A stretch of 39,816 nucleotides of DNA from a virus (taxonomy: Duplodnaviria > Heunggongvirae > Uroviricota > Caudoviricetes): the IMG/VR virus record IMGVR_UViG_2541047807_000001, positions 1 to 39,816 of that record; one strand, written 5' to 3'. Of this stretch, positions 2,609-32,037 are shown piece by piece. Below the pieces are notes generated by a model. That model had not been told where the DNA came from and searched no databases. It saw nothing but the letters and a program-made list of their open reading frames with translations. Every line of letters begins with the position of its first letter. The first letter of the stretch is position 1. The position numbers and the translations under genes are program-made.

Positions 2609-3426
2609 ATACTGGCATCTATTTCGACATCAGCAATGAGGACTACCACGCCGGTGACGGCGTGAGTAAGTCGCAACTAGACATGGTTGCCAAGAATCCG
2701 GCGCTTCTTAAATGGGTTCAGGCAGCACCAGAAGACGAAGAGAAAAAGTCTGCACTGGATATGGGAACCGCATTGCACTGTCTGCTTCTGGAGCCTGGAG
2801 AATTCAACAAACGCTTCATTGTTTCACCGAAATTCGATCGTCGGACGAAACAAGGTAAAGCTGACGAAGAAGCATTTCTTCGTGATGTAGCGGATATGGG
2901 GATTACGGTACTTGATGCCGAGCAGTGGCGGAAACTGGAGCTGATGCGTGATAGCGCAATGGCTCACCCGGCGGCACGCTGGATGCTGGAAGCACCTGGT
3001 TACTGCGAAGCATCAATGTACTGGAATGATGAAGAGACTGGTGAGTTGTGCCGCATTCGTCCAGACAAATGGCTGAACGAGCACAACGTGATCGTCGACG
3101 TGAAAAAGGTTGCAGATATGGACCGTTTTGCACGCCACATCGAGGAATTCCGCTACCACGTGCAGGACGCAATGTACCGCGAAGGAGCGATGAGGGTTAC
3201 TGGTCAGTCGCATGGTTTTTTCTTTCTTGCCGTGAGCGAAAGCATTGATTGTGGTCGGTATCCGGTACGCGTGTTCGAGCTGGATGCGCCGGATGTCGAT
3301 GCCGGGCACGCCCTGTTCCGCCGGGATCTGAATACCTATCACGAATGCCGCATCAATGATGAATGGGGCGGCGTGGAAATTATTAAACGCCCTGACTGGG
3401 CACGTAAACAGGATATGTACGTATGA
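2605..3426 (+). CDS. PD-(D/E)XK exonuclease (YqaJ / lambda Exo-like recombination exonuclease)
   Basis: RPD...VIVDVKK motif (PD-x12-DVK), size about 270 aa, immediately upstream of and coupled to a RecT-like gene. Confidence 0.6.
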   Translation: MNTGIYFDISNEDYHAGDGVSKSQLDMVAKNPALLKWVQAAPEDEEKKSALDMGTALHCLLLEPGEFNKRFIVSPKFDRRTKQGKADEEAFLRDVADMGITVLDAEQWRKLELMRDSAMAHPAARWMLEAPGYCEASMYWNDEETGELCRIRPDKWLNEHNVIVDVKKVADMDRFARHIEEFRYHVQDAMYREGAMRVTGQSHGFFFLAVSESIDCGRYPVRVFELDAPDVDAGHALFRRDLNTYHECRINDEWGGVEIIKRPDWARKQDMYV

Positions 3427-4304
3427 GCAATGATATCGCAATCACATCACAACCAGGCGCAACTGTAGGTACTGCTGCGGCAATCTTCAGCCCGGAGGGC
3501 ATGAATCAACTGGTGCGTTTCGCGGAGTTGATGTCACAAAGCAAAGCGACTGTACCGAAACATCTTGAAGGCAAACCTGCCGATTGTCTGGCGGTGACCA
3601 TGCAGGCGGCACAGTGGGGAATGAACCCTTTCGCCGTGGCGCAGAAAACGCATATGGTAAACGGAACGTTAGGCTACGAAGCACAGTTGGTAAACGCGGT
3701 CGTATCCTCTTCCAGCCTGCTAGCGACACGCCTGAATTATCGCTGGAGCGGTGACTGGTCGAATGTTAACGGCAAAACAGATAAATCACCGAATCTGACG
3801 GTAACTGTGTCAGCAGTTCTTAAAGGAGAAGCAGAACCCCGTGAGCTTACCATCAGTATGGCGCAAGCCGGAGTGCGTAACTCTCCATTGTGGGAACAGG
3901 ATCCGCGCCAGCAGCTTGCCTATCTTTGCACGAAACGATGGGCTCGCCTGCACGCTCCTGATGTACTTCTCGGTGTTTACACCCCTGACGAATTACAGGA
4001 AACGGCACCGCGCGTTGAGCGAGACATTACTCCGCAAACGACTACTGCTGCGGGAATGAACAGTCTGATCAACGCTAAACCAGTGAAAAAGCCTGATGAG
4101 CAAACGCGTAAAGCGGATAGCCGTGATCCAGAAGAAATGCTGATGGCCTTTACCAGCGCAGCGATGAATTACAGCACTGTCTCCGAACTGGATAAGGCTT
4201 ACAAATACATTGCACAAAAACTTTCAGATGATGACGAACTGCTGGCAAAAGCCACCGACGTTTACAGCGTTCGTCGGGAAGAATTAAACGAAACATCTAT
4301 GTAA
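3423..4304 (+). CDS. RecT-family single-strand annealing protein
   Basis: Conserved RecT-like core (PADCLAVTMQAAQWGMNPF ... NGTLGYEAQLVNAVV); paired with the upstream exonuclease. Confidence 0.7.
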   Translation: MSNDIAITSQPGATVGTAAAIFSPEGMNQLVRFAELMSQSKATVPKHLEGKPADCLAVTMQAAQWGMNPFAVAQKTHMVNGTLGYEAQLVNAVVSSSSLLATRLNYRWSGDWSNVNGKTDKSPNLTVTVSAVLKGEAEPRELTISMAQAGVRNSPLWEQDPRQQLAYLCTKRWARLHAPDVLLGVYTPDELQETAPRVERDITPQTTTAAGMNSLINAKPVKKPDEQTRKADSRDPEEMLMAFTSAAMNYSTVSELDKAYKYIAQKLSDDDELLAKATDVYSVRREELNETSM

Positions 4305-4353
4305 CCACCACCGCGGCGCCACGCGCGCCGCACTGCAACCAAGAGAGGTATTT

Positions 4354-4602
4354 ATGAAAGGTGCATTAGGTAAGAAGGAACTCCTGGCGGTGGTGCCACT
4401 GTCATGGAGCACTATCGACCGTATGGAGCGCGCAGGGGAATTTCCTAAACGCTGGTATATCACTGACAAACGCTGCGCATGGAACCGTGACGAAGTTGAG
4501 CGTTGGCTTGATGAACGTCAGGCAGCAAGCCCGGCAGAGTTCCAGGGTAAAAAGCCTCCTGTTCAGCAACGTGTATATCGTCCTGTGAGCAACGCTGCAT
4601 GA
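4354..4602 (+). CDS. AlpA-family excisionase / transcriptional regulator
   Basis: ELLAVVPLSWSTIDRMERAGEFPKRWYITDKRCAWNRDEVERWL matches the AlpA/Xis HTH pattern. Confidence 0.65.
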   Translation: MKGALGKKELLAVVPLSWSTIDRMERAGEFPKRWYITDKRCAWNRDEVERWLDERQAASPAEFQGKKPPVQQRVYRPVSNAA

Positions 4603-4711
4603 GTGCGCTGCTAAGGCACTGGAGCAAATGGTCAGGATGGTACTTATTCCTGGCCTCTGTTTCAGCATGGCTTTATCTGCTGGCATTAATTTTCAGAGAG
4701 GGTTGGATTAA

Positions 4712-5011
4712 GTGAGAAAGTTAAGCCGACTTGAAAAATATCACATGAACAAGGTTTCAATGCGCCGTCCTTCAAAGGTTATCGCCGTTACTCCTGCGGC
4801 GATAGAGTTCGAAAAACGCGCGATTGAAAGAGAGAAAAAAGGGCAGTTCCGCATTGCCGCTCACCTTTGGCTTCAGTGTATGGATGTTGCTTCTGGTGAT
4901 GTTGAACGTGCAAGGATCGCGGTTCGCAGGGACCAATGTATCACAAAAGGTAACGGCCTTCGCCGTGGCGACTATAGCGGCATAGGATGTTGTGGGGTGG
5001 TTTATGACTAA
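4712..5011 (+). CDS. Hypothetical protein (start uncertain)
   Basis: ORF only; GTG at 4712 or ATG at 4745. Confidence 0.3.
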   Translation: MRKLSRLEKYHMNKVSMRRPSKVIAVTPAAIEFEKRAIEREKKGQFRIAAHLWLQCMDVASGDVERARIAVRRDQCITKGNGLRRGDYSGIGCCGVVYD

Positions 5012-5654
5012 GAAATACACACTAATCTATGCAGATTCACCCTGGGTATACCGGGACAAAGCCGCAGATGGTAATCGCGGTGTCGGTTTTAAATATCCGG
5101 TTATGAGTGTGCTGGATATCTGCCGCCTTCCTGTGTGGGATTTGGCCGATGAAAACTGTCTGTTGGCCATATGGTGGGTGCCAACACAACCACTCGAAGC
5201 ACTAAAAGTTGTTGAAGCCTGGGGATTCCGTCTGATGACCATGAAGGGCTTCACGTGGATAAAATGTGGTAGTCGACAACCAGATAAACTGGTTATGGGT
5301 ATGGGACACATGACTCGCGCCAATAGTGAAGATTGCCTGTTTGCGGTAAAGGGAAAACTACCTCCGCGCATTAATGCAGGTATCGTTCAGTCATTTACCG
5401 CACCGCGGCTTGAGCATTCAAGAAAACCAGATGTCGTTCGTGAAAAACTTGTGCAATTGTTAGGCGATGTTTCTCGCATTGAACTGTTCGCCCGCCAGTC
5501 GTCTCATGGCTTCGATGTTTGGGGTAATCAGTGCGAAGACCCGGCAGTGCAACTACACCCTGGATACGCGTTGGATATTGGCGGATTAACAAATGCATTC
5601 AGCAATGCTCCGCTGTCACTAACAGACAACCAGGGGCGGGAGCGTGCTGCATGA
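5004..5654 (+). CDS. Phage Dam-like / MT-A70 family DNA N6-adenine methyltransferase
   Basis: IYADSPW (DPPW-like catalytic motif) near the N-terminus and conserved C-terminal IELFARQSSHGFDVWGNQ. RBS ggggtgg before ATG 5004. Confidence 0.7.
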   Translation: MTKKYTLIYADSPWVYRDKAADGNRGVGFKYPVMSVLDICRLPVWDLADENCLLAIWWVPTQPLEALKVVEAWGFRLMTMKGFTWIKCGSRQPDKLVMGMGHMTRANSEDCLFAVKGKLPPRINAGIVQSFTAPRLEHSRKPDVVREKLVQLLGDVSRIELFARQSSHGFDVWGNQCEDPAVQLHPGYALDIGGLTNAFSNAPLSLTDNQGRERAA

Positions 5655-9754: not shown

Positions 9755-12070
9755 TCATAAAATAGATTTCGTCTTTGTAACAATAATATCTACAAAATCA
9801 CCTGTAGATATAGCTGATGGTACTGTATCTGCAAGAGTAATCTTTTCTGAAGAGATGTTTTGCACATCTAATAATTTATTTTCAACCCCATCCGTATATA
9901 CCAATTTGACATCACTGAATGGAGGGTAATAAGTGACTGTTCCTTGGTATACATATATTTCACTGCCTGAAATTGATTTCACTACATACCTGCCCCTTAC
10001 AAGATTAATTTTGAGTTCAGATAAATCGGTTTTATAACAGGTAATTCCTGAACCAATGTTAGCCATACTAATATCAGTATCACTATAATAAGTAATTGCT
10101 TTTCCTTGTTTTAAGGTGAAGTTATCTTTGCTTTTCCTTGGCAAGGATGTGCTATTTTTGTAATATCTACCAGTTAAGCATAGCCATGAAAATGCAGTAT
10201 TCGCTACATTACCACCAGAATACACAGCTAAACGAATTGCACTAACTGGAACCCCTTCATTATTAATCCTGATCTTAATGGAAGAAATGTTAGCAACAGT
10301 AGCATATCTATGGTTAGATGAATCCCATTGCATAGAAGAAGTTATTGCTTCTGTTTGTGAAGTTATGACATTCCCATCTCCATCTAATGCATACAGGTAA
10401 ATGCGAAACGATGCCGTATCTGCTGAGAATGTAAACATATCACCATTTCTTACTGGTACATCTCCAGATTCCCATAACAACCCAAAATTCCGCATAAAAG
10501 CAAACTTAGAAGAAACTAGGTGACGGATATTATATAAACCATCTACATCTGTTTGATATGCTAATACACCAACTTCTCCATTGTTGGCACTGGATATAAA
10601 TGGGGTGTTAGCATTTAAAGAAAACAATGTTACTTCATCGGATATATTTTCCTGAACATGAAATACTGCATTCCCCTTGCCATTATCAGTTACCTCTACA
10701 TAAGTGTAAGGTGATGGATTGTATGGTTCATTTGTATAGTAAGGAGAACTTAACCATGAAGCCTCAATTGAGTTATTCCACGTATATTCACCAAAGTTAA
10801 TTATCAACTGTTGGTTAGTTGGGGATGATGGATATCGTTCAAAACGAAACCCGTAGAAGTAATTGTTATCACCTCTTTGAATATCAATTTTACCTGCCCC
10901 CTCCATAGTTCCACCATAAAACTTATTGTGGTTATGATGATATGGATTATCAGCGAAAATGATATTATTCGTACGATTCAGATAAAAATAGTTTTCATTT
11001 ATCCATCCGTTCTCAACTCCAAGAAAATGAATTGTATCGACCTTTTTCAGGTTAAAGGTTGAGTATGCTATTGAATAATCCGTCGATGCCACCGAAGCAT
11101 TATAATTTGCATATAACTGTAAGTAGTCGCAACGCTCAATGTTAATATGCTGCCCTTTTGCCCCGATAATACGAATATCCGGTGTCGTTTCAGATGAAAT
11201 ACCAGAATTTCTGATAATCGTTCCGAAGTTTTGTCTTGGGTTGTTAGGGTTTGATGCATTCCCGCCAAGCAATACCCCTATTCCTGAGTGGGATATGGTA
11301 AAAACAGCATTGGTCATTTCGAGGCTGACATTACGAAGATTTAATGTCTCCGTAATAATAAAATTACCTTCCGCTCGTAATGTTCTGGATGATTCTCGTG
11401 CATATTCTGCAGCCAGGATCAATGCAGATGTATCATCTGTTATACCATCGCCTTTTGCCCCAAAATCGCGAACACTAACGGTGTCTCTCATCTTATCCTG
11501 GAACGTTCGGTATACTGCTCCAGAACCATACTGAATAAACCAACCAAAACCACCAACAACCCCGGCGATTGCAGCATCGACATAATTACGCATTGAGCGA
11601 TTATTTACAGCGTCCTGCTCAAGTGATGGATCTGCAAGGTTAGAAATTTTGTTTTGCTTTGCATCGTAATATTTTGCAAGCAAAGATGGTTTCATCAATG
11701 CACGTCTGAACCACCCAAAACATTGCTGGATCAGCATCGTCAGGTAGTCAAAAGCATCTTCATGCACTTCGGGGAAAAATTTTCCCTGATTGCGAAGATC
11801 TGTCTCCTGCACTACATCAAGCACACGATCTATCGTAATTCGCCAGCCAGCAGCAAGCGGAGACGGCAGAACCACTGAACCGCCACTATAAGTGCCCGCC
11901 CCAGTTACCGTATAACCGGTATCCAGAACCAATTCTGTTACGTTCCCGTTCAGGTCAGACACCTGAACAACCAGGTCTGATTTTCTGAAAATTCGAAAAG
12001 TATACGGAAACGATGTCGTAACGCCGTTACCTGTGTATTCGTTGTGGTCAACTTCGGTTGAGACCGTCAT
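9755..12070 (-). CDS. Tailspike / receptor-binding protein with T7 gp17-like N-terminal adaptor and pectate-lyase-like beta-helix
   Basis: N-terminus MTVSTEVDHNEYTGNGVTTSFPYTFRIF is tail-fiber-adaptor-like; VRDFGAKGDGITDDT is a beta-helix depolymerase signature. The gene is visibly AT-rich versus its neighbours. Confidence 0.8.
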   Translation of the reverse strand: MTVSTEVDHNEYTGNGVTTSFPYTFRIFRKSDLVVQVSDLNGNVTELVLDTGYTVTGAGTYSGGSVVLPSPLAAGWRITIDRVLDVVQETDLRNQGKFFPEVHEDAFDYLTMLIQQCFGWFRRALMKPSLLAKYYDAKQNKISNLADPSLEQDAVNNRSMRNYVDAAIAGVVGGFGWFIQYGSGAVYRTFQDKMRDTVSVRDFGAKGDGITDDTSALILAAEYARESSRTLRAEGNFIITETLNLRNVSLEMTNAVFTISHSGIGVLLGGNASNPNNPRQNFGTIIRNSGISSETTPDIRIIGAKGQHINIERCDYLQLYANYNASVASTDYSIAYSTFNLKKVDTIHFLGVENGWINENYFYLNRTNNIIFADNPYHHNHNKFYGGTMEGAGKIDIQRGDNNYFYGFRFERYPSSPTNQQLIINFGEYTWNNSIEASWLSSPYYTNEPYNPSPYTYVEVTDNGKGNAVFHVQENISDEVTLFSLNANTPFISSANNGEVGVLAYQTDVDGLYNIRHLVSSKFAFMRNFGLLWESGDVPVRNGDMFTFSADTASFRIYLYALDGDGNVITSQTEAITSSMQWDSSNHRYATVANISSIKIRINNEGVPVSAIRLAVYSGGNVANTAFSWLCLTGRYYKNSTSLPRKSKDNFTLKQGKAITYYSDTDISMANIGSGITCYKTDLSELKINLVRGRYVVKSISGSEIYVYQGTVTYYPPFSDVKLVYTDGVENKLLDVQNISSEKITLADTVPSAISTGDFVDIIVTKTKSIL

Positions 12071-12570: not shown

Positions 12571-12663
12571 ATTTACATCGCACTCCTCTTGTGCCATAGT
12601 AATCAGGCACTGGCAAAATCCAGTGCCGGGATTGGCGTCCCGGGTTACTACAGAGGCACATAT

Positions 12664-12687
12664 GCCGCATAAGCGGTTTTTTTATGT
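12664..12687 (+). terminator. Rho-independent terminator
   Basis: ccgc-ataa-gcgg hairpin followed by a run of seven T. Confidence 0.5.
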
Positions 12688-12837
12688 GTAAAGCGCACCT
12701 ATTCTATGGTGGGCTGTGTGGGGGCACCGAAAGGTGCGCCGGGTCCTTTGTAGCCGGTTACGCCAACCCTGCACAGTTCACCACCAACCGATTGGCGTCG
12801 GTAGTGGTGATTAACCTAACTACAAAGGTGATCACTA

Positions 12838-13523
12838 TGACTGCTAACGTAACCCCATCTGTTTTTCATTTTGAATCAGAAGCAACCATTCGAGCCATTG
12901 TTATTGATGGAAATCCTTGGTTTGTTGCCAAAGACGTTATTAAAGCTCTTCAACTGACAAACCCCACTATGTCAATAAAATCTCTTGATGATGATGAAAG
13001 GGCTAAATTTAACTTAGGCCGTCAAGGCGAAACCAATATTATCAACGAGTCAGGCCTCTACACACTGATCCTCCGCTGCCGCGACGCAGTGACACCAGGC
13101 ACTATCCCCTACCGCTTTCGTAAATGGGTTACAGGTGAGGTTCTTCCTCAGATCCGCCGCACCGGAAGTTACATTAAAAACTCGCTCCCGCAGGAAGAAC
13201 GCATAAAGATGGTTGCCGACCAGGTAGCCAACGCCATAGCATCAGCAGTGATGCAGGCAATGAAGATAGAGAACAAAACCTACAGTGCCCCGCTGAAGCC
13301 CGGCTACCGCAGTCTGATTCATTCGCCGTCGGGTGTTCTCGGCCTGACGGAGAACTCACTGCTGATGAATCTGCTGAACCAGTTACAGGAAGACGGGCAT
13401 GACGTATCGGGCGCGGCGGCGGAGTTGACCACCATGTTCTGCTACATCGTCGGTGTGAGCAAATGCCTGCGTGATATCCAGACCCACGCGGAGTACATCA
13501 ACGACAAGGCAGGGTTCTTCTGA
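12838..13523 (+). CDS. Antirepressor (Bro-N / AntA-type N-terminal domain)
   Basis: FHFESEATIRAIVIDGNPWFVAKDVIKALQLTNP is a Bro-N/Ant signature. RBS aaggtga before ATG 12838; the longer ORF-track start at 12684 lies in the terminator T-run. Confidence 0.7.
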
Positions 13524-13669: not shown

Positions 13670-13849
13670 ATGCGAAACGAAAAATTGCAGATGCGTAGAG
13701 CGCAAGCTGCCGCAAGACGTTCTTTCAATGGAAGCGTAGAGTACGTAAAAGTTACTATGACAAAAGATCACGCAAGTCGCGTATCCCGCGCTTTCTTTGA
13801 TTCTCGTAACAATAAGGAAAATTATGAGTTCGTCTGCGTCGCAGAATGA
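13670..13849 (+). CDS. Small basic protein overlapping the start of the toxin-like gene (candidate partner or antitoxin)
   Basis: 59-codon ORF with RBS gagg 8 nt upstream; overlaps the next gene by 26 nt. Confidence 0.35.
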   Translation: MRNEKLQMRRAQAAARRSFNGSVEYVKVTMTKDHASRVSRAFFDSRNNKENYEFVCVAE

Positions 13850-14369
13850 TAAAAATCAAATTGTCAGATATAAGGGTCGAGTGTTGCATACGCAAAATTT
13901 CTCGGCCCTTTGTGCATCTGATCTTGAGCTGAAGAAAGTATCTGATGCCTTTACCCAGTATTGGAAAACGGGATACCATCCATCTCTTGGTAAAGATGCT
14001 GCATTTGCTCGTCCGACAGAAATGCTTAAACTAAATGTCAGGCATACTCATGTCGATAACCAAGACTATATTCCAGAAGATAGTGATAAAAAACACACTG
14101 GTAAAAAATCATCTTGGGATGCATGGAAAAATATAGCGTCTGTACAAGTAAAATGCATACCAACAAGTGATTGCTTTTTAGTTTATTCGGTAAATCACAA
14201 TCGTGATGCGCTGGTTATGTTTTTTGTTGACGCAGATGCTCACAACATAACTGAGCAAGAAGAGTTTAAAGAGGAAGCAATCACTATCAGTTATCAATTC
14301 TTTGAGAAAACAAAAACAGAACCAATGCCTTTAGAAGAAGATCTTTTTTCTGATAAATGGAAGGAATAG
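13824..14369 (+). CDS. YafO-like toxin family protein (candidate ribosome-dependent mRNA interferase)
   Basis: Three blocks in YafO order: YWKTGYHPSLGKDAAF, LNVRHTHV, CFLVYSVNHNRDALVMFFVDADAH, matching my recollection of E. coli YafO (...FGRDALY.., ..ERVAHIHL.., ..AHLVYCQGAFDEQAWLLIAILKPEPH). RBS aaggaaaa before ATG 13824. Confidence 0.5.
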   Translation: MSSSASQNDKNQIVRYKGRVLHTQNFSALCASDLELKKVSDAFTQYWKTGYHPSLGKDAAFARPTEMLKLNVRHTHVDNQDYIPEDSDKKHTGKKSSWDAWKNIASVQVKCIPTSDCFLVYSVNHNRDALVMFFVDADAHNITEQEEFKEEAITISYQFFEKTKTEPMPLEEDLFSDKWKE

Positions 14370-14390
14370 CCCGCAGCGCGGGCTTTTTTG
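14368..14390 (+). terminator. Rho-independent terminator
   Basis: agcccgc-agc-gcgggct hairpin followed by six T. Confidence 0.55.
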
Positions 14391-14460
14391 TGGACGAAAC
14401 AAAAGTCAGTGCTACACTCATTGACGCCACATTGAGGTGGCTTATAGATGGAAATTTCAC

Positions 14461-14623
14461 AATGAAAAAAGCATTTGCTGCACTGTTCGTTTTGTTGTCT
14501 CTGGTAGCTTCAACTCAGGCCTTTGCCGGTCGTTGTCAGCACGACAGCGATACTGCTGCTGACGGCTCCCGCTGCGGTGGGCGTTCTGCGGATTCCCGTC
14601 CGGGCGGCGGTGGCATTCGTTAA
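14461..14623 (+). CDS. Small secreted peptide with signal peptide, Cys-containing and Gly-rich
   Basis: MKKAFAALFVLLSLVASTQAFA signal peptide, then a 31-aa mature part. Own sigma70-like promoter TTGACG-16-TATAGA just upstream. Confidence 0.45.
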
Positions 14624-14659
14624 AAACAAGGCCGCGAAAGCGGCCTGTGACATGTCACG

Positions 14660-15109
14660 CTACTTGCGAAATCTTTCTTTACCCTTCCAGCCAGTAGATG
14701 TTAGTTCAGGATGAATGGTTCCCAATATAAAGCCAACCATAGCGGAGCGAGGATCTTCTATTTTATCCGTTAATTCTTCGGCATAACTCACAGGCAACCA
14801 AGCAACAAGATCACCAATCCTCAGCTTTGGTCCTTTGCTGTAAGATGAATCGGCAATAACAAAAAATCCACCATCAGCTGAGCACACCTTCAGCATTGCC
14901 CTTTGTCTTCCAGAATCTAGCAAAACTGGCTGTTCCCCACTGGGACCAGGTATGATGATGGCTGGCATTGGTTTATTGGCTGAAAGGCTTGTGTCAAGAT
15001 ACTTACACGCATACTCAAAAGCTGAAAAGTTATCCTTAAAGATAAGAGGTTGAATTTTATTGCTAACCTCCTTACCACCGATTAATCTGTTGATCATCTT
15101 CTTGAACAT
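14660..15109 (-). CDS. Hypothetical protein (AT-rich accessory gene)
   Basis: ATG at 15109 with RBS aggtga; about 150 aa; opposite orientation to flanking accessory genes. Confidence 0.5.
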   Translation of the reverse strand: MFKKMINRLIGGKEVSNKIQPLIFKDNFSAFEYACKYLDTSLSANKPMPAIIIPGPSGEQPVLLDSGRQRAMLKVCSADGGFFVIADSSYSKGPKLRIGDLVAWLPVSYAEELTDKIEDPRSAMVGFILGTIHPELTSTGWKGKERFRK

Positions 15110-15121
15110 AAAGGTCACCTA

Positions 15122-15562
15122 ATGATTAAGCCGATGCACGCTATTACAGCTACCGTTTTGTTTATCCTACCAATTTTTTCGTTTGCAAACGACATATGTT
15201 TTAAGAATTTAATAAATGAGGATATGTGTGCACATGCAAACAAAATCGCATCAGAAGCAGGAAAGTCACTTCCCATAAAATTGAATGATAATATGTCTAT
15301 TGTTTCAATAAATGCAATACTAAACAAACTTTTAGTTGTAGCGCATCTTAATTACAACAACAGCTATTTATCAAAAGTTTATAATGGTGATATAACCTTA
15401 GAAAATAAATTAAAGAGTGTGATGCGAAATTATTCAAAATCGAGCATTTGCTCCAACAGGCAAATGAAAGCATTTATTCACCTTGGCGGAGAGATTGAGT
15501 ATAGGTATGTATTTAGTGATGGCAATATATTTGATACATACGCCATCACTAATTGTGAATAG
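15122..15562 (+). CDS. Hypothetical periplasmic or exported protein (AT-rich accessory gene)
   Basis: N-terminal hydrophobic signal-like segment ITATVLFILPIFSFA, four Cys, low-GC composition. Confidence 0.5.
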   Translation: MIKPMHAITATVLFILPIFSFANDICFKNLINEDMCAHANKIASEAGKSLPIKLNDNMSIVSINAILNKLLVVAHLNYNNSYLSKVYNGDITLENKLKSVMRNYSKSSICSNRQMKAFIHLGGEIEYRYVFSDGNIFDTYAITNCE

Positions 15563-18500
15563 CTATTTCATCTGCTCTTCAACTTTATTTAGTAACGGTG
15601 ATATCGCCCACAGGTTCTGAAAAGGTAGCATTTTACGGACCGCGTGGGTTTGCTGGCTGTCAAATTCTCCGTTAAGTACACCATTCGCAACCGTCGCGGC
15701 ATCACCGCCAAGATCAAAGGTAGGACCAAGTAAAGCACCAATAGCATTACGACTCTGAAACCTTGATACCGGAGGCGCACCAAACATCGCGCCAAGACCA
15801 AACCTACCGCCGCTTATGTTCTCAACGGTATTCAGCGGCTCAGAGAGCCAGCCAAGCATTCCGCCCCGGTCGATCCCCTCTTTCACAAGGTTATTCCAGC
15901 TGTAGTCGATATCGCGACCGCTTAACTTCTGTTTCATCATATATACCATTGAGCCAAGCGCAATCGTGCCAAGCGCACCAAGATAGAATGCAGCATCGCC
16001 CTGCTGGATACCAGATACCAGCACCCTGTTATGCTGTGCGAAGATAAACGTTTTGAACTGCGTGATCATCTTCCAGCCTTCTTTACTAAAAAACAGCGGT
16101 GTATCACCTACGCCAGGCGTTACAATCACTGAGTCTACATCTTTCAGCACTGCAGACTGGAAAATCTCTCTAGCGAAACGGTCATCCCACAGATGACTAT
16201 GCCCGGTTAACAGCCCGTCCATATCCTCTCCGTGCTTCCCGAATTGCTCCCCGATTCGGCGCAGAACATCTTCATTGATGCCGACCTGTGCCATCTTCCG
16301 CATTTCACTTTTGGAGAGCGTGCCACCAGCAGAAACTTGGCGAGCCGCGTCAAGTATCCTCGACTGCACTATCATCCCGGACCATGATTTAAGTGCGCTG
16401 TTCCACTGATTCATCAGCGTCCAGTTACCGAATTTCTGCGTCATCCAGTTCAGACCTCGCTCAGCGGCGCTTCTCCGGCTATAGGGGTCAGTAAGATCCG
16501 CTATAGCCTTTGTACGCGTAGACAGGACATAATCAAGCCCAACGGCCATTTCTCGCAAATCCCTAGTTGCAATTTTCACTGAGTCCATATTTTTAAGCAT
16601 GCTTACCATTGGTCCGAGAGATTTTCTCAGGCCATGCTGCATCATCGGTCGCATCAGATCAGTTGCAGCGGAGACAGTCATTCCACCAAGCAAACGGAGG
16701 AAGTTAATATTCCTAGCAACTCGCCCGGCACGAACAAAGAAACTGCGTGGATCTTGAGGTGCGCCGTAAGTACCAAGCAGTCGATCACGCATAGCCGTAA
16801 TATCCCTAATATCAGCCTCCCGTTGCTTCTCAAGAACTGCACGTCGTTTAGGTGTTTTAGCCTCTTTTATTAGCCGGGTATATTCCTCACTAACCTGACG
16901 GATTTGCTCCCCCATATCTTTACGGCCAAACTGCGCAGTCAGCTCAATTTCTGGTGCCACCTGCCGGAGATAACTTTCCATGATGTAGTTAACATCTGAT
17001 TCAAGAAAATCTTCTATACGCTCATCAGGAATAAGCAGCGTTCTGCTTTTAGTGAAACCAGCCCGACCAACGAGTCTCTCTGGGATAATATCGGCTGGTA
17101 CAAGCCCGGAAGGTGCGCCTATTATTTTATTCACGATCTCGTCAGCAGCGTCCTCTGCTTCCTCTCGGGATAGAGGCTCCATCTGCTTCAGTGCTCGTTC
17201 GCGGCTTGCATTCAGCCTTGTGGTTGAATTTGCCCGTTTTTGCAGTCGGCGAAGCTCAGAACGATATTTCCGTGGATTATCCAGCAACTCCATATGGCGC
17301 TGATAGACAGGAAGCTCACTCTTTGCCTGCGCTATATCATCAAGGCGTGTTTTAAGGTCAGAGCTTTCTTTCATCATTCTTGCCTGAAGTTTTTCTGATG
17401 AAGTCTCGGCCAACTCTTTTTCTATTCTTGTAAGACGCGCCTGTGTGTCAGTCTCCTGAGATATAAGCTTATTTCGTTTATCCAGTTCTTCCATGAGTAG
17501 AATTTTTTTACCAGACCATTTCTCCGCTTCAGCGATTTCACTAGCGAGAGCATCAGCGCGCGGTGCCGATTCCTCTGCAGTTTTTAGCAATGAATTTATC
17601 CTTTCAATTCGCTGACCTGCTTTGTCAGCACCTTTGGCACTAATCCCTTGTATCCAGTTGGCAATTCGCCCTCTGAATTCAGTGCGGTCGGAAAGTATCT
17701 TATCGAACTTATAAATGCGGGGAAGATAACTTTTCGCCGTCACGACATCGATATCCTCAGGAAGGATCCCCAGTTCCTGCATACGGGCTTTTGTGGTCTC
17801 GAAAATGGGGCGGATTCTGGCGGCTGCTTGTGAAACCTCAGGAATATCACTCTGATCACCACGGCGCATAGCCATGCCAACAGCTTCATTGAAATCAATA
17901 AAGTTCATCCTCTTCACGCCGCGGGCGCTAACAGATTTGCTGTACTGCTGGTAAGCATCACGAGTGGCTTCCATCTGCTTATAAAGCATGGCGTCGTATT
18001 GCTTAATCTTAGTCTCGACTGCCGTAAACGTAGCCAACCCCTCATCATTTTTGGCGAAGAAATAGTTATTTTCGGCAAGCTGCTGGTTAATCTGACGGGA
18101 GACAAGAGATGGTGATTGAGCCAAGCGGCCAGCAGGAGTGACACTCAACGTTTTGTTAGCAAGTCCAAGTCCAGCGAGCTGTTCCTGATCGAGTGTGGTA
18201 TTGAAAACCTGAGCTGCACCAATGCTTTGAGGAGAATCCATACCTCGCAAATGATTACCTACTGAGTTAACCACTGCCTCGCGCGCGCTAGGTCCAGCAA
18301 GTAGCTGTGCACCAGCACCAAGGATCCCACCAACGAGAGCATCAACAACAACGTTCGATACGCTCTCCATCGGTGAGCGAGCTTCCTGAGTGGCCTGTAA
18401 TGCGGCTTCTGATACTCCCCCACCAGCAGCATTCGCCAGGGCAAAACGCCCTGCCGTCTCAGCAATACTTCCTCCACGCGCTACCGCCCCTACAGGGATA

Positions 18501-18952
18501 AACATTGCAGCCACATTAACCGGGTCTATCATTCCCATTGCTAAGCTTGAAATAGTACCAGCACCACCCATTTCAGATAGATATTCTCTATCTGTTCTTT
18601 GCTTATCGATTCGATGTTTAATTGCCATTGTTTCTTCATGCGAACCGGAGTTGATAAACGAATCTGCAAAATCTTCATAGCCTTTAATATCTGCTGCATC
18701 GTTATCAAATGGGTTATATCCTTCAACCCTGTCAAACTGACTGAAAGGAGCACTGGCAATAAAGCTACCCAGCGTGTTATCTATACGAAATGCTGCTTGT
18801 CTAGACCTTTGAACGCGTTGATCACTGGTAAATGGGTTCACAGCAGAAAGCAAAGAAGGTGTTTCCATATAGAAATTACTGTCATCAGGTGCTGCTATTT
18901 GCTGAATATCCTCGCCAAGCAACTCTTTAGGATCCTGTTCATATATCGGCAT
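15563..18952 (-). CDS. Large internal virion / DNA-ejection protein (T7 gp16-like position)
   Basis: 1129 aa with a long coiled-coil central region, upstream of the tailspike in the structural operon. Confidence 0.55.
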   Translation of the reverse strand: MPIYEQDPKELLGEDIQQIAAPDDSNFYMETPSLLSAVNPFTSDQRVQRSRQAAFRIDNTLGSFIASAPFSQFDRVEGYNPFDNDAADIKGYEDFADSFINSGSHEETMAIKHRIDKQRTDREYLSEMGGAGTISSLAMGMIDPVNVAAMFIPVGAVARGGSIAETAGRFALANAAGGGVSEAALQATQEARSPMESVSNVVVDALVGGILGAGAQLLAGPSAREAVVNSVGNHLRGMDSPQSIGAAQVFNTTLDQEQLAGLGLANKTLSVTPAGRLAQSPSLVSRQINQQLAENNYFFAKNDEGLATFTAVETKIKQYDAMLYKQMEATRDAYQQYSKSVSARGVKRMNFIDFNEAVGMAMRRGDQSDIPEVSQAAARIRPIFETTKARMQELGILPEDIDVVTAKSYLPRIYKFDKILSDRTEFRGRIANWIQGISAKGADKAGQRIERINSLLKTAEESAPRADALASEIAEAEKWSGKKILLMEELDKRNKLISQETDTQARLTRIEKELAETSSEKLQARMMKESSDLKTRLDDIAQAKSELPVYQRHMELLDNPRKYRSELRRLQKRANSTTRLNASRERALKQMEPLSREEAEDAADEIVNKIIGAPSGLVPADIIPERLVGRAGFTKSRTLLIPDERIEDFLESDVNYIMESYLRQVAPEIELTAQFGRKDMGEQIRQVSEEYTRLIKEAKTPKRRAVLEKQREADIRDITAMRDRLLGTYGAPQDPRSFFVRAGRVARNINFLRLLGGMTVSAATDLMRPMMQHGLRKSLGPMVSMLKNMDSVKIATRDLREMAVGLDYVLSTRTKAIADLTDPYSRRSAAERGLNWMTQKFGNWTLMNQWNSALKSWSGMIVQSRILDAARQVSAGGTLSKSEMRKMAQVGINEDVLRRIGEQFGKHGEDMDGLLTGHSHLWDDRFAREIFQSAVLKDVDSVIVTPGVGDTPLFFSKEGWKMITQFKTFIFAQHNRVLVSGIQQGDAAFYLGALGTIALGSMVYMMKQKLSGRDIDYSWNNLVKEGIDRGGMLGWLSEPLNTVENISGGRFGLGAMFGAPPVSRFQSRNAIGALLGPTFDLGGDAATVANGVLNGEFDSQQTHAVRKMLPFQNLWAISPLLNKVEEQMK

Positions 18953-31342: not shown

Positions 31343-31419
31343 GTGGCATTAGCTCAGTTGGACAGAGCAACCGCCTTCTAAGCGGTTGGTTGCAGGTTCG
31401 AATCCTGCATGCCACGCCA
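31343..31419 (+). tRNA. tRNA-Arg (anticodon TCT)
   Basis: Hand-folded cloverleaf: acceptor GTGGCAT/ATGCCAC, D-stem GCTC/GAGC, anticodon stem ACCGC/GCGGT with loop CTTCTAA, T-stem GCAGG/CCTGC with loop TTCGAAT, 3' GCCA. 77 nt. Confidence 0.85.
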
Positions 31420-31617: not shown

Positions 31618-32037
31618 ATGAAGACAATTGATATGTTGGCTAAGTATCTAAATGAATGGCCATTAAAATATTCTCGTATCGTTCAGGCTGAAGACTGCAT
31701 TTTTTATGGCGTTTTTGCTGGTAATGAAATGCATTACGAAGTAATTCAGAGTGAGGGACTGGCCGGGTTAACTCTTAGCGAAGACCATGGTACTAGCGTT
31801 ACGTTCCATGACTGGATAACAGCACAACGTTATGAAATGGAAAAAGGCGATGTGTTTGATATTTCTCGATCTGTTTACGCTAAAGCAAAAAGTGATAATG
31901 ATTACATGAGCGAACACTTATACAACATGAAGTTACAATGCCTGCATGCGGCGCTTATTCAGAATGGGCACTTCGATAAAACAAGTGCCATCAATATTGC
32001 GGAAGCCATCAACGCTGGATTTAATGCCATTAAGTAA
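31618..32037 (+). CDS. Hypothetical moron protein (AT-rich, opposite orientation inside the late operon)
   Basis: 139-aa ORF with RBS aaggtgag; AT-rich; followed by a palindrome and terminator. Confidence 0.55.
   Translation: MKTIDMLAKYLNEWPLKYSRIVQAEDCIFYGVFAGNEMHYEVIQSEGLAGLTLSEDHGTSVTFHDWITAQRYEMEKGDVFDISRSVYAKAKSDNDYMSEHLYNMKLQCLHAALIQNGHFDKTSAINIAEAINAGFNAIK

What the first reader, a model, noticed from the sequence alone, without database searches (positions are those of the whole stretch)
14660..15562. Back-to-back AT-rich gene pair with almost no intergenic space
The minus-strand gene 14660..15109 and the plus-strand exported protein 15122..15562 start only about 12 nt apart and are both AT-rich relative to the flanking structural genes. 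This indicates recent horizontal acquisition, with promoters necessarily embedded in each other's coding sequence. Neither product matches a family I recognise, so they may be a superinfection-exclusion or defence pair.
Basis: partly seen in the sequence, partly recalled or inferred. Interest (0 to 1): 0.6.

Follow-up and report, generated by a model that had tools for sequence, protein, structure and literature searches.

The report
Head-to-head prophage accessory gene pair
Two real but uncharacterised cargo genes sit start-to-start, 12 bases apart, in a swap-prone slot of an E. coli prophage: one makes a secreted periplasmic protein at the spot where phage P22 keeps its superinfection-exclusion gene, the other a cytoplasmic beta-barrel protein, and they are separable modules, not a fixed pair.

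Summary
The OB-fold gene (14660-15109, minus) and an exported-protein gene (15122-15562, plus) start 12 nt apart. Their GC is 42% and 32%, against 50.3% for the late genes. Both are under purifying selection.

The window is an epsilon15/phiV10-like prophage. The pair lies between the last ejection-protein gene and the late terminator. Relatives carry other cargo there, and only 14 of 5,426 complete E. coli genomes carry either gene, the same 14 for both.

The genes are not an obligate pair. Each occurs without the other, the exported partner comes in at least three forms, and Klebsiella relatives have a P22-type mnt/arc/ant module inserted between them.

- **Minus protein:** a generic OB-like barrel from an unannotated family of at least 307 clusters. 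Function unknown.
- **Promoter:** a sigma-70-like promoter for the plus gene is predicted inside the minus gene's disordered first 17 codons. It recurs at the same position in 7 of 8 loci with a divergent exported partner.

Superinfection exclusion is plausible for the plus gene but untested.

The parts
14660..15109 (-). Gene for a 149-aa cytoplasmic protein with an OB-like beta-barrel. Residues 1-20 are disordered; residues 21-149 form an N-terminal helix plus barrel. It is phrog_9944, and the broader family has no Pfam model.
15122..15562 (+). Gene for a 146-aa Sec-exported soluble periplasmic protein with an AspS/PA3611-like alpha/beta fold and four invariant cysteines. It is phrog_8772.
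15122..15190 (+). Signal-peptide coding segment (MIKPMHAITATVLFILPIFSFA|ND). This DNA block is shared with a relative (L014) whose mature exported protein is unrelated by BLAST.
   Evidence: Sequence. AxA-type cleavage site conserved in all 18 family members, Cys only at +3 to +5, no lipobox. BLASTn similarity to L014 stops at window position 15195. L014 partner sequence.
15110..15121 (.). 12-nt spacer AAAGGTCACCTA between the two start codons. It carries both Shine-Dalgarno elements as a near-palindrome.
   Evidence: Direct reading of the sequence. Same 12-nt spacing in L014, L022 and L072; 12-13 nt in L069; 19-23 nt in L005 and L015.
15060..15088 (+). Predicted sigma-70 promoter of the plus gene (TTGCTA-17-TAATCT), inside codons 8-17 of the minus gene. 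Implied transcription start near 15095, giving a 27-nt leader.
   Evidence: PWM scan score 9.2. An equivalent element with its -10 ending at nt 22 of the minus gene occurs in window, L022, L014, L069, L072, L073 and L005 (scores 9.2-11.7). None scores above 6.3 in loci where the genes are not adjacent. 3.3% of random 100-nt windows reach 9.2. Not verified experimentally.
15498..15525 (-). Strongest sigma-70-like match on the minus strand (TTGCCA-16-TATACT), 389 nt upstream of the minus gene and inside the plus gene. Candidate only.
   Evidence: score 12.5. Weaker at the same position in L022 (8.7). AT-rich DNA yields many such matches: the tool's scan found 2 sites against 5.3 expected.
15345..15374 (-). 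Second minus-strand promoter-like site (TTGATA-18-TAAGAT), 236 nt upstream of the minus gene. Candidate only.
   Evidence: score 11.9.
14629..14646 (-). Intrinsic terminator for minus-strand (late-direction) transcripts: a GC hairpin followed by TGTTTTT. It is unidirectional, with no T-run on the plus strand.
   Evidence: The homologous 61 nt in phiV10 contain an annotated terminator right after its last late-operon gene. The same hairpin follows the OB gene in Klebsiella L020.
15563..18952 (-). Last ejection/internal-virion protein gene (1129 aa), the end of the structural late block. It is convergent with the plus gene, with no bases between the two stop codons.
   Evidence: phrog_342, internal virion protein. 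Annotation in L001.
14462..14623 (+). 53-aa exported peptide gene (phrog_14503, 'membrane associated protein', moron category). It is convergent with the minus gene across the terminator.
   Evidence: Candidate promoter TTGACG-16-TATAGA at 14421-14448.

Best explanation
These are two independently mobile accessory (moron-type) genes stacked in the variable slot that epsilon15/phiV10-like prophages keep between the last ejection-protein gene and the late-operon terminator. That region corresponds to sieA/immI in P22.

**Shown**
- Both are real genes, under purifying selection, compositionally foreign and rare.
- Each occurs without the other. The exported partner exists in at least three forms not alignable by BLAST. 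Klebsiella relatives have a complete mnt | arc-ant module between them.
- The plus product has a cleavable Sec signal and a confident AspS-pilotin/PA3611 fold, without lipid anchor.
- The minus product is a cytoplasmic OB-like barrel from a large unannotated family, with no conserved neighbours.

**Inferred**
1. The plus gene is expressed in the lysogen. Its orientation is antisense to the late operon, like P22 sieA. In Klebsiella it sits 11 nt behind a Mnt-like maintenance repressor gene. In this window it would use a promoter embedded in the dispensable, disordered first ~17 codons of the minus gene.
2. Its product acts in the periplasm by binding a partner in a hydrophobic groove, as AspS binds the secretin S-domain. 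The most likely effect is blocking envelope passage of superinfecting phage DNA (the ejection-protein conduit). I put this function at about 0.3.
3. The minus gene is transcribed in the late/lytic direction, by read-through from the ejection-protein gene across the antisense of the plus gene, ending at the terminator at 14629-14646. Its product binds a nucleic acid or small ligand. What it does is unknown.
4. The two transcription units interpenetrate, so strong late transcription should silence the plus gene by occlusion and antisense RNA. The two genes would then be expressed in opposite phases.
For: **Identity of the element and slot:**

**Rarity and co-presence in E. coli:** 14 of 5,426 genomes for each gene, the same genomes, against 533 genomes matching the 14400-15700 query, mostly in its flanks.

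**Composition:**. **Purifying selection:**

**Separability**
- Plus homologue alone in Providencia, Morganella and Salmonella.
- Plus homologue present in Klebsiella but separated from the OB gene by an immI module.
- Minus homologue alone at the end of the late operon in phiV10-like contigs.
- Alternative exported partners in L014, L015, L069 and L073.

**P22 synteny:** 16 -> sieA(-) with its own promoter, mnt(-), arc/ant(+), then gene 9. [quoted passage not shown]

**Plus protein fold**
- Its topology matches the published AspS/PA3611 description, including PA3611's extra helix (PMC3542185). The cysteine positions (Cys110 in the alpha2-equivalent helix, C-terminal Cys145) are compatible with the published alpha2/C-terminal disulfide.
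- Sub-threshold PF16549 hits in 2 of 18 members.

**Embedded promoter:**. The Klebsiella OB protein lacks exactly the N-terminal 16 residues that carry it, and those residues are disordered in the model.

**Late read-through geometry:** no strong terminator-like site between 15563 and 15109, only one weak hairpin at 15466-15445; a terminator at 14629-14646.

**A distant OB homologue** sits directly behind a cI-like repressor in an Acinetobacter prophage.
Against: - No expression or phenotype data exist.
- All promoters are consensus matches in AT-rich DNA, and the tool's own scan found fewer matches than shuffled controls.
- Promoter conservation is confounded by shared ancestry and by protein-coding constraint on the INRLIG motif. 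L073 keeps the element although its partner gene is 234 nt away.
- The sieA analogy is positional only. SieA is a multi-pass inner-membrane protein and this protein is soluble, with no sequence similarity.
- The plus family occurs in Salmonella and Klebsiella, which as far as I know lack AspS-type secretins. The pilotin fold therefore does not identify the target.
- The same ejection-protein type occurs with different partners or none, so there is no covariation pointing to the ejection proteins.
- The OB gene sits behind a repressor in Acinetobacter but in the late direction here, so its expression phase is ambiguous.
- In E. coli the two genes are always found together, which leaves room for a functional link.
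Confidence: 0.4

Rival explanations
1. The two genes form one functional two-component unit, such as a defence or abortive-infection system or a toxin-immunity pair. The periplasmic and cytoplasmic proteins would work together, and the tight head-to-head layout would be selected to keep them co-inherited and co-regulated.
For: In complete E. coli genomes the two genes occur in exactly the same 14 genomes. A divergent layout of the OB gene with an exported-protein gene recurs in about 8 loci down to 57% OB identity, in Cedecea. Some metagenomic relatives of the OB domain are fused to Zeta-toxin/AAA_33 kinases.
Against: - Plus homologues occur alone in four genera; OB homologues occur alone in phiV10-like phages.
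- The exported partner is replaced by proteins not alignable by BLAST while the OB gene stays.
- A 1.6-kb immI module separates the two in Klebsiella.
- The broader OB family has no conserved neighbour in 25 genome loci.
- There are no PADLOC hits.
- The two products sit in different compartments, with no membrane-spanning component linking them.
Confidence: 0.12
2. The plus protein is a secretin-directed factor: a soluble pilotin-like chaperone or decoy. It would bind the S-domain of a host secretin (T2SS GspD-beta, or HofQ) and so alter secretion or virulence. That is lysogenic conversion, not phage exclusion.
For: The best structural matches are the T2SS pilotins AspS (Vibrio, ETEC) and PA3611. 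Two family members give weak PF16549 T2SSS_2 hits. PA3611 was itself proposed to bind secretins in the periplasm (PMC3542185). It has also been reported as a secreted factor acting on host cells (PMC8860233, title seen).
Against: - There is no lipobox, so it cannot pilot a secretin through the Lol pathway.
- No secretion-system gene lies in any of the loci examined.
- Family members occur in Salmonella and Klebsiella, which to my knowledge lack AspS-dependent secretins. This was not tested here.
- Sequence membership in PF16549 fails (E 0.055, below the cutoff).
Confidence: 0.12
3. The plus protein is an orphan periplasmic immunity protein. It would protect the lysogen from an interbacterial periplasm-acting toxin (a T6SS/CDI effector or a colicin-type toxin), not from phage.
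For: It is small, Sec-exported, disulfide-bonded and fast-evolving (dN 5-7 times that of the neighbouring ejection-protein gene). It is swapped between several types at one locus and carried on a mobile element. All these traits are typical of immunity genes.
Confidence: 0.1
4. The genes are ordinary late or virion genes of this phage type, expressed only during lytic growth, with no role in the lysogen.
Against: - Most related phages lack both genes, including phiV10, TL-2011b and EC.W1-9. Neither gene has a close match in 50,697 phage records; the only hit is a 29%-identical OB homologue in an Acinetobacter phage.
- The plus gene is antisense to the late operon and its product is Sec-exported.
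- The OB family is mostly chromosomal in Alphaproteobacteria, with unrelated neighbours.
Confidence: 0.05

Closest known systems
P22 sieA locus (superinfection exclusion A) and the immI region between gene 16 and gene 9
   Same: - Same genomic logic: a small prophage accessory gene directly downstream of, and convergent with, the last ejection-protein gene. It is antisense to the late operon and precedes antirepressor genes, the tailspike and O-antigen conversion genes.
- In Klebsiella relatives the plus gene directly follows a Mnt-like gene that faces arc-ant, a P22-type immI module.
- Like SieA, the family exists as several host-associated types with low mutual identity (PMC10883804).
   Different: SieA is a multi-pass inner-membrane protein with a cytoplasmic FxRYPxEAxxFNK motif. 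This protein is a soluble periplasmic alpha/beta domain with a cleaved signal peptide and no sequence similarity. P22 sieA has 22 nt and its own promoter region around it, not a gene 12 nt away. No exclusion phenotype has been tested here.
AspS (GspS-beta/YghG) T2SS pilotins and Pseudomonas PA3611 (PDB 4FTF, 5ZDH, 3NPD; Pfam PF16549 T2SSS_2)
   Same: - It has the extra helix after beta3 seen in PA3611.
- Invariant cysteines lie in the alpha2-equivalent helix and at the C-terminus, which may correspond to the family's conserved disulfide (PMC3542185).
- Like PA3611, it has a signal peptide without a lipobox.
   Different: - Sequence identity is 14-16%, and Pfam membership is not reached.
- It has a second invariant cysteine pair near the N-terminus and no C-terminal helix alpha4.
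- It is encoded in a prophage, not beside a secretion system.
- Secretin binding is untested.
Phage 'morons' (Hendrix-type accessory transcription units)
   Same: Foreign base composition, presence/absence polymorphism among otherwise near-identical prophages, location at a recognised variable position between functional modules, and products plausibly useful to the lysogen.
   Different: A classical moron carries its own promoter and terminator in flanking non-coding DNA. Here there is essentially no non-coding DNA. The predicted plus promoter lies inside the neighbouring gene, the plus gene has no terminator (its stop codon abuts a convergent gene), and the minus gene appears to borrow the late operon's terminator.
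Convergent (face-to-face) promoter switches with transcriptional interference, such as coliphage 186 pR/pL (from my own knowledge, not checked here)
   Same: If the minus gene is also served by a start point inside the plus gene, or by late read-through, the two transcription units run into each other and overlap at their 5' ends. That is the geometry producing mutual interference in such switches.
   Different: Here the transcripts encode cargo genes, not regulators. Only the plus-strand promoter has comparative support, and no interference has been measured.

Membership tests
AspS/PA3611 family (Pfam PF16549 T2SSS_2) | Alpha/beta fold: alpha1, beta1-3, alpha2-3, beta4-5 | tested here: met
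   [not shown]
AspS/PA3611 family (Pfam PF16549 T2SSS_2) | Sequence-profile membership above the Pfam gathering threshold | tested here: not met
   No hit for the window protein. Best hit among 18 family members is E 0.055, in 2 members. The PDB sequence-profile search does not find 4FTF or 3NPD.
AspS/PA3611 family (Pfam PF16549 T2SSS_2) | Conserved disulfide linking helix alpha2 to the C-terminal region | tested here: inconclusive
   Cys110 (in helix 91-111) and Cys145 (C-terminus) are invariant in 18 sequences, which is compatible with the published disulfide. Model coordinates could not be inspected for the S-S distance.
T2SS pilotin (functional class) | Lipoprotein signal (lipobox with +1 Cys) for Lol-dependent outer-membrane targeting | tested here: not met
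   The signal peptide ends with an AxA-type site (SFA|ND). The first Cys is at +3 to +5 in all 18 members, and there is no L-[AS]-[GA]-C motif.
T2SS pilotin (functional class) | Genetic linkage to a secretin or T2SS operon | tested here: not met
   All loci examined place the gene in epsilon15-like prophages, between ejection-protein and antirepressor/tailspike genes.
T2SS pilotin (functional class) | Binding of the secretin S-domain | not testable with these tools
   Needs binding assays or complex modelling.
P22 SieA-type superinfection exclusion | Located between the last ejection-protein gene and the tailspike gene, antisense to the late operon | tested here: met
   Window layout compared with the P22 annotation. 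Klebsiella relatives have mnt/arc/ant adjacent.
P22 SieA-type superinfection exclusion | Multi-pass inner-membrane protein with the conserved FxRYPxEAxxFNK motif | tested here: not met
   There is a single cleavable signal peptide and then a soluble domain. The motif is absent from the sequence (motif taken from PMC10883804).
P22 SieA-type superinfection exclusion | Expressed from the prophage and blocks DNA injection by related phages | not testable with these tools
   Needs lysogen transcriptomics and phage challenge experiments.
Moron (independent accessory transcription unit) | Deviant composition and presence/absence among close relatives | tested here: met
   GC 0.320 and 0.420 against 0.503 +/- 0.014 for the late genes. 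14 of 5,426 genomes carry the genes, against 533 that match the slot query, mostly in its flanks. Alternative cargo in IHE3034, EC.W1-9 and phiV10.
Moron (independent accessory transcription unit) | Own promoter and own terminator flanking the gene | tested here: inconclusive
   A predicted promoter for the plus gene is embedded in the minus gene. No terminator follows the plus gene, since the stop codons abut. The minus gene is followed by the late terminator shared with phiV10.
Known anti-phage defence systems or toxin-antitoxin pairs | Match to a catalogued defence/TA protein family, and obligate co-occurrence of the components | tested here: not met
   No PADLOC, Pfam or NCBIfam hits. The components are found separately and with swapped partners.
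OB-fold nucleic-acid-binding proteins (for the minus protein) | Five-stranded closed beta-barrel of OB topology | tested here: inconclusive
   [not shown]
OB-fold nucleic-acid-binding proteins (for the minus protein) | Binding of ssDNA, RNA or an oligosaccharide/ligand | not testable with these tools
   Only indirect hints: pI 9.25, and fusions to Zn-ribbon and AAA_33/Zeta-type kinase domains in a few metagenomic relatives.

The most novel reading that the evidence does not exclude
The plus gene defines a new class of superinfection-exclusion factor: a soluble periplasmic protein of the pilotin (AspS/PA3611) fold that captures part of the incoming ejection-protein conduit of epsilon15-like podophages. 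In this reading it replaces the membrane protein SieA at the same genomic position. It is wired head-to-head with a lytic-phase OB-fold gene so that interpenetrating transcription units form a minimal lysogeny/lysis expression toggle, with the exclusion gene's promoter written into the disordered N-terminus of its neighbour. If true, this would also give the orphan PA3611 family its first mechanistic function.
Probability: 0.2. Interest if true: 0.65.

Novelty: new variant of a known kind. Interest (0 to 1): 0.42.

Why it matters
Prophage cargo slots are where new phage-exclusion and host-conversion functions keep turning up.

- **A concrete candidate.** The plus gene is cheaply testable. It is a secreted protein of the pilotin fold sitting at the sieA position of a different podophage lineage. 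If it excludes phage, periplasmic (not membrane) interception of the ejection conduit becomes a mechanism to study, and the uncharacterised PA3611-type proteins gain a function.
- **An unnamed family.** The minus gene exposes a widespread single-domain family (at least 307 clusters at 50% identity) with no Pfam model.
- **Genome compaction.** Two ribosome-binding sites share a 12-nt near-palindrome, and a promoter is apparently carried inside the dispensable first codons of the neighbouring gene. This is a clean example of how phages compress regulation.

If none of this holds, the pair remains an ordinary pair of hypothetical moron genes.

Tried and rejected
**Family and sequence searches with no informative result**
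1. Pfam, NCBIfam and PADLOC on both proteins gave no usable hits. PHROGs only returned 'unknown function' families.
2. PDB sequence-profile searches for both families found nothing relevant.
3. tblastn against 50,697 phage genomes gave no hit for the plus protein and one distant hit for the minus protein.

**Structure searches for the minus protein**

**Guilt by association for the OB family**
5. The GTDB genome scan with the close alignment found nothing. With a distant sub-alignment it gave 38 loci.
6. Their neighbours share no conserved family and are mostly housekeeping genes.
7. N-terminal extensions of 47 longer relatives have almost no Pfam or PADLOC domains. Only a few show Zeta-toxin/AAA_33 or Zn-ribbon domains.
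8. IMG/VR scans returned few loci.

**Other specific tests**
9. The 283-aa gene that fills the slot in IHE3034 is not related to the OB gene (hhalign probability 0.06%).
10. The alternative exported partner (L014/L015 type) could not be shown to be a diverged homologue of the plus family. The 95% hhalign probability was driven by the shared signal peptide and falls to 4% for the mature parts. Homology is not established.
11. Covariation between exported-protein type and ejection-protein type was not found. The same 1129-aa protein occurs with three different slot contents.
12. The tool's own promoter scan found no plus-strand promoter in the minus gene, because it demands 9 of 12 consensus matches. 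My PWM scan found one, so it should be treated as a moderate-strength prediction.
Full report
**What is in the sequence.**
- The minus-strand gene runs 14660-15109 from an ATG preceded by AGGTGA. A GTG at 15118 would extend it by three codons but is less well placed.
- The plus-strand gene runs 15122-15562.
- NCBI's PGAP pipeline annotates the same two CDSs (WP_000473936, WP_000595048) in a 99.5%-identical prophage of E. coli F2_407_2_2.
- The 12-nt spacer AAAGGTCACCTA carries both Shine-Dalgarno elements as a near-palindrome.
- At the other end, the plus gene's TAG (15560-15562) directly abuts the stop codon of the 1129-aa internal-virion/ejection protein gene (15563-18952, minus strand). No non-coding DNA exists on that side either.

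**Composition.**
- The plus gene has GC 0.320 (GC3 0.320). It is the lowest of 36 genes in the window, and only 0.5% of same-length windows are as low.
- The minus gene has GC 0.420. That is unremarkable against the whole window (z -1.3) but about 6 SD below the 13 late structural genes (0.503 +/- 0.014).

**Both are real genes.** The minus protein has 13 close homologues. The plus protein has 20 family members after a profile search. Pairwise dN/dS against diverged orthologues is 0.04-0.24 for both. Their dN is 5-7 times that of the adjacent ejection-protein gene, so they evolve fast but under constraint.

**Where this is.** The window is an epsilon15/phiV10-like (Uetakevirus-type) prophage. 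The order, read in the late-operon direction, is:
1. portal, capsid, T7-gp14-like core protein, and 915-aa and 1129-aa ejection proteins;
2. the pair;
3. a hairpin-plus-T-run terminator at 14629-14646;
4. an island of opposite-strand accessory genes: a 53-aa exported peptide, a YafO-like toxin and a Bro-N antirepressor-like protein preceded by isrK and C4 antisense RNA;
5. tailspike, holins, endolysin.

The 61 nt containing the terminator match phiV10. There an annotated terminator directly follows the last late-operon gene, a 46-aa membrane protein. The pair therefore sits between the last ejection-protein gene and the late terminator.

**The slot is variable.**
- IHE3034/APEC-O18-type prophages and phage EC.W1-9 carry a single 283-aa gene there. 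It is unrelated to the OB gene.
- phiV10 carries the 46-aa gene alone.
- Other contigs carry the 46-aa gene plus the OB gene.
- Among 5,426 complete E. coli genomes, 533 match the 14400-15700 query (mostly in its flanks), but only 14 carry the plus gene and only 14 carry the minus gene, the same 14.
- Neither gene has a close match in 50,697 deposited phage genomes. The plus protein has no hit, and the minus protein only a 29%-identical one in an Acinetobacter phage.
- Horizontal acquisition into a cargo hotspot is well supported.

**Not an obligate pair.**
- The plus-family gene occurs without the OB gene in Providencia, Morganella and Salmonella prophages. It is always convergent with the last ejection-protein gene.
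- The OB gene occurs without any exported partner at the end of the late operon in phiV10-like contigs.
- Where the OB gene does have a divergent exported partner, that partner comes in at least three forms:
  - the plus family itself, in sub-types only 28-38% identical;
  - a 143-147-aa protein (L014, L015, L069);
  - a 194-aa protein (L073).
- The L014 partner shares the window's signal peptide almost residue for residue. DNA similarity between the two loci stops at 15195, the signal-peptide/mature boundary. The mature parts are not demonstrably related (hhalign 4%).
- Most tellingly, Klebsiella prophages (L020, L021) carry both genes with a complete P22-type immI module inserted between them.
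  - The plus homologue lies 11 nt downstream of a Mnt/Arc-like RHH gene.
  - That gene faces an arc-like gene and a P22_AR_N antirepressor across an operator-rich intergenic region.
  - The OB gene follows the antirepressor.

**The plus protein.**
- It has a classical Sec signal peptide ending SFA|ND. All 18 aligned family members keep an AxA-type site, with the first cysteine 3-5 residues later. There is no lipobox.
- Four cysteines are invariant.
- AlphaFold2 on the 18-sequence alignment gives pLDDT 84.8, above 90 for the mature domain.
- The element order (helix, three strands, short helix, two helices, two strands) matches the published AspS description, including PA3611's extra helix. Cys110 and Cys145 may correspond to the conserved alpha2/C-terminal disulfide. 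PA3611, like this protein, has a signal peptide but no lipoprotein signature (PMC3542185).
- Sequence-level membership is not reached. There is no Pfam hit for the window protein, and PF16549 T2SSS_2 appears only at E 0.055 in 2 of 18 members.
- I therefore file it as 'AspS/PA3611 fold, PA3611-like soluble form', not as a pilotin. The lipid anchor and the secretin linkage that define a pilotin were tested and not met.

**The minus protein.**
- It is cytoplasmic (no signal peptide or transmembrane segment) and basic (pI 9.25).
- An exhaustive profile search found 307 cluster representatives (171 at E <= 1e-10). Most are stand-alone proteins of about 150 aa. Some carry the domain at the C-terminus of longer proteins, and a few are fused to Zeta-toxin/AAA_33 kinase or Zn-ribbon domains.
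- No Pfam, NCBIfam or PADLOC model covers it.
- The AF2 model is confident (pLDDT 92.2). Residues 1-20 are disordered, followed by a helix and a beta-barrel.
- In 25 genome loci, mostly Alphaproteobacteria, its neighbours share no family.
- A 29%-identical homologue lies directly behind a cI-like repressor in an Acinetobacter prophage, and one locus is next to a GmrSD-type nuclease gene. These are isolated hints.
- Its function remains open. I commit only to 'stand-alone cytoplasmic OB-like binding module'.

**How the pair is probably transcribed.** For the plus gene there is comparative support.
- A PWM scan finds TTGCTA-17-TAATCT at 15060-15088. Its -10 ends 34 nt before the plus ATG, implying a 27-nt leader that contains the SD.
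- An equivalent element, with its -10 ending at exactly nt 22 of the OB gene, is present in window, L022, L014, L069, L072, L073 and L005 (scores 9.2-11.7). L005 is the Cedecea locus, whose OB protein is only 57% identical.
- L015 has a shifted, weaker version.
- The two lineages in which the OB gene is not next to an exported gene (phiV10-like L009/L070, Klebsiella L020) score no higher than 6.3.
- Only 3.3% of random 100-nt windows of this phage reach 9.2.
- The element occupies codons 8-17 of the OB gene. That segment is disordered in the model, and the Klebsiella protein lacks it entirely. The N-terminal extension therefore looks dispensable for the protein and may persist because it carries the neighbour's promoter.

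Caveats: the loci share ancestry, the INRLIG peptide motif constrains the same bases, and nothing has been measured.

For the minus gene the evidence is weaker.
- The strongest sigma-70-like matches on that strand lie 389 and 236 nt upstream, inside the AT-rich plus gene. Such DNA generates matches freely.
- A weak element recurs about 52-55 nt upstream, in the signal-peptide coding block.
- The alternative is that late-operon transcripts simply continue from the ejection-protein gene, across the antisense of the plus gene, into the OB gene and stop at 14629-14646. The geometry fits: the stop codons abut, only one weak hairpin (15466-15445) intervenes, and the late terminator sits just after the OB gene.
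- There is precedent in the layout of P22: sieA and mnt lie in the opposite orientation between gene 16 and gene 9. From my own knowledge, not checked here, gene 9 is expressed by late read-through.
- Either way the two transcription units interpenetrate, so strong late transcription should antagonise plus-gene expression.

**What it most likely does.** The closest analogy is the P22 sieA/immI region.
- P22 order: gene 16 (last ejection protein), then sieA on the opposite strand with its own promoter, then orf59a and mnt, then arc-ant, then tailspike gene 9, then gtrCBA.
- The plus gene occupies the sieA position and orientation. In Klebsiella it even follows the mnt-like gene.
- SieA blocks DNA injection, and escape mutations map to the ejection proteins gp16 and gp20. 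It exists as three types less than 30% identical, and it is found only at this position (PMC10883804).
- Three features of the plus protein fit the same job done from the periplasmic side:
  - it is soluble and periplasmic;
  - its fold family is known to clamp a helical peptide segment;
  - it diversifies in host-associated types at the same position.
- I rate that specific function at about 0.3. The general statement (an envelope-acting accessory protein expressed from the prophage, independent of the OB gene) I rate considerably higher.
- Against it: the resemblance to SieA is positional only. I found no covariation with ejection-protein type. The AspS fold points equally to a secretin-related role or to an immunity-type role.

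**Comparison and novelty.**
- The kind of thing is known: moron-type cargo at the late-operon/immI boundary of a temperate podophage.
- What is new in detail:
  - an unannotated exported family with the pilotin/PA3611 fold at the sieA position;
  - an unannotated OB-like family of at least 307 clusters;
  - an unusually compact head-to-head layout with a shared palindromic ribosome-binding spacer and a promoter apparently embedded in the neighbour's disposable N-terminus.
- I class it as a new variant of a known kind, of moderate interest. Its value depends on simple experiments that have not been done.

Noticed in passing
window 12607-12788 (+): Rfam finds isrK Hfq-binding RNA (12607-12683, 74.7 bits) directly followed by C4 antisense RNA (12702-12788, 79.5 bits), just upstream of and overlapping the long ORF that contains the Bro-N domain (12684-13523). 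This looks like a P1/P7-type immI antirepressor control module. The true Bro-N start is probably downstream of C4, as PGAP annotates a 236-aa protein in L001.
   Followed up: partly
window 13670-14369 (+): A 59-aa ORF (13670-13849) overlaps the start of a YafO-family toxin-like gene (13797-14369; Pfam PF13957, E 9e-6; GC 0.368). A strong terminator follows at 14368-14384. This is a probable type II toxin-antitoxin cassette. The same 59-aa/YafO-like pair recurs in L009, L016 and L069.
   Followed up: partly
Klebsiella loci L020/L021, about 3024-5432: A complete P22-like immI module sits exactly between the OB homologue and the plus homologue: a Mnt-like 77-aa RHH gene, palindromic operators, an Arc-like 53-aa gene and a P22_AR_N antirepressor with its own terminator. 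The OB protein there lacks the N-terminal 16 residues present in the window.
   Followed up: yes
L014 4545-4988, L015 4546-4977, L069 3544-3987, L073 493-1077: Alternative exported proteins (143-147 aa and 194 aa) take the place of the plus gene next to the OB gene. L014 and L069 reuse a nearly identical signal peptide, and the similarity breaks exactly at the signal-peptide/mature junction. All end in a C-terminal Cys, as the plus family does. Whether they share its fold could not be tested.
   Followed up: partly
window 31343-31419 (+): A tRNA-Arg(TCT) gene that reads AGA. Five of the 7 Arg codons in the OB gene are AGA/AGG, including the AGA that forms part of the predicted embedded -10 element.
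   Followed up: no
window 9755-12070 (-) and 31618-32037 (+): Two other low-GC modules. The 771-aa tailspike gene has GC 0.387. A 139-aa opposite-strand gene (GC 0.393) sits between the packaging and head genes; its counterpart in L001 is annotated 'Gp49 family protein'. It may be another moron.
   Followed up: no
window 14462-14623 (+): A 53-aa gene encodes a signal peptide plus a ~29-aa Gly/Arg/Asp-rich mature peptide with two Cys (phrog_14503, 'membrane associated protein', moron category). It is conserved next to the late terminator in E. coli and Klebsiella relatives. The terminator hairpin has no T-run on the plus strand, so transcripts of this gene could read into the antisense of the OB gene.
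   Followed up: no
L013 (Acinetobacter phage MD-2021a) 4195-5387: A 163-aa homologue of the OB protein (29% identity) lies immediately downstream of, and co-oriented with, the cI-like repressor gene, opposite cro. This is the classic position of prophage-expressed exclusion genes such as lambda rexAB.
   Followed up: partly
L001 16167-17395: In the near-identical prophage of E. coli F2_407_2_2, the tail protein gene is interrupted by an IS3-family element and the adjacent glycosyltransferase is truncated. That copy of the prophage is probably defective.
   Followed up: no
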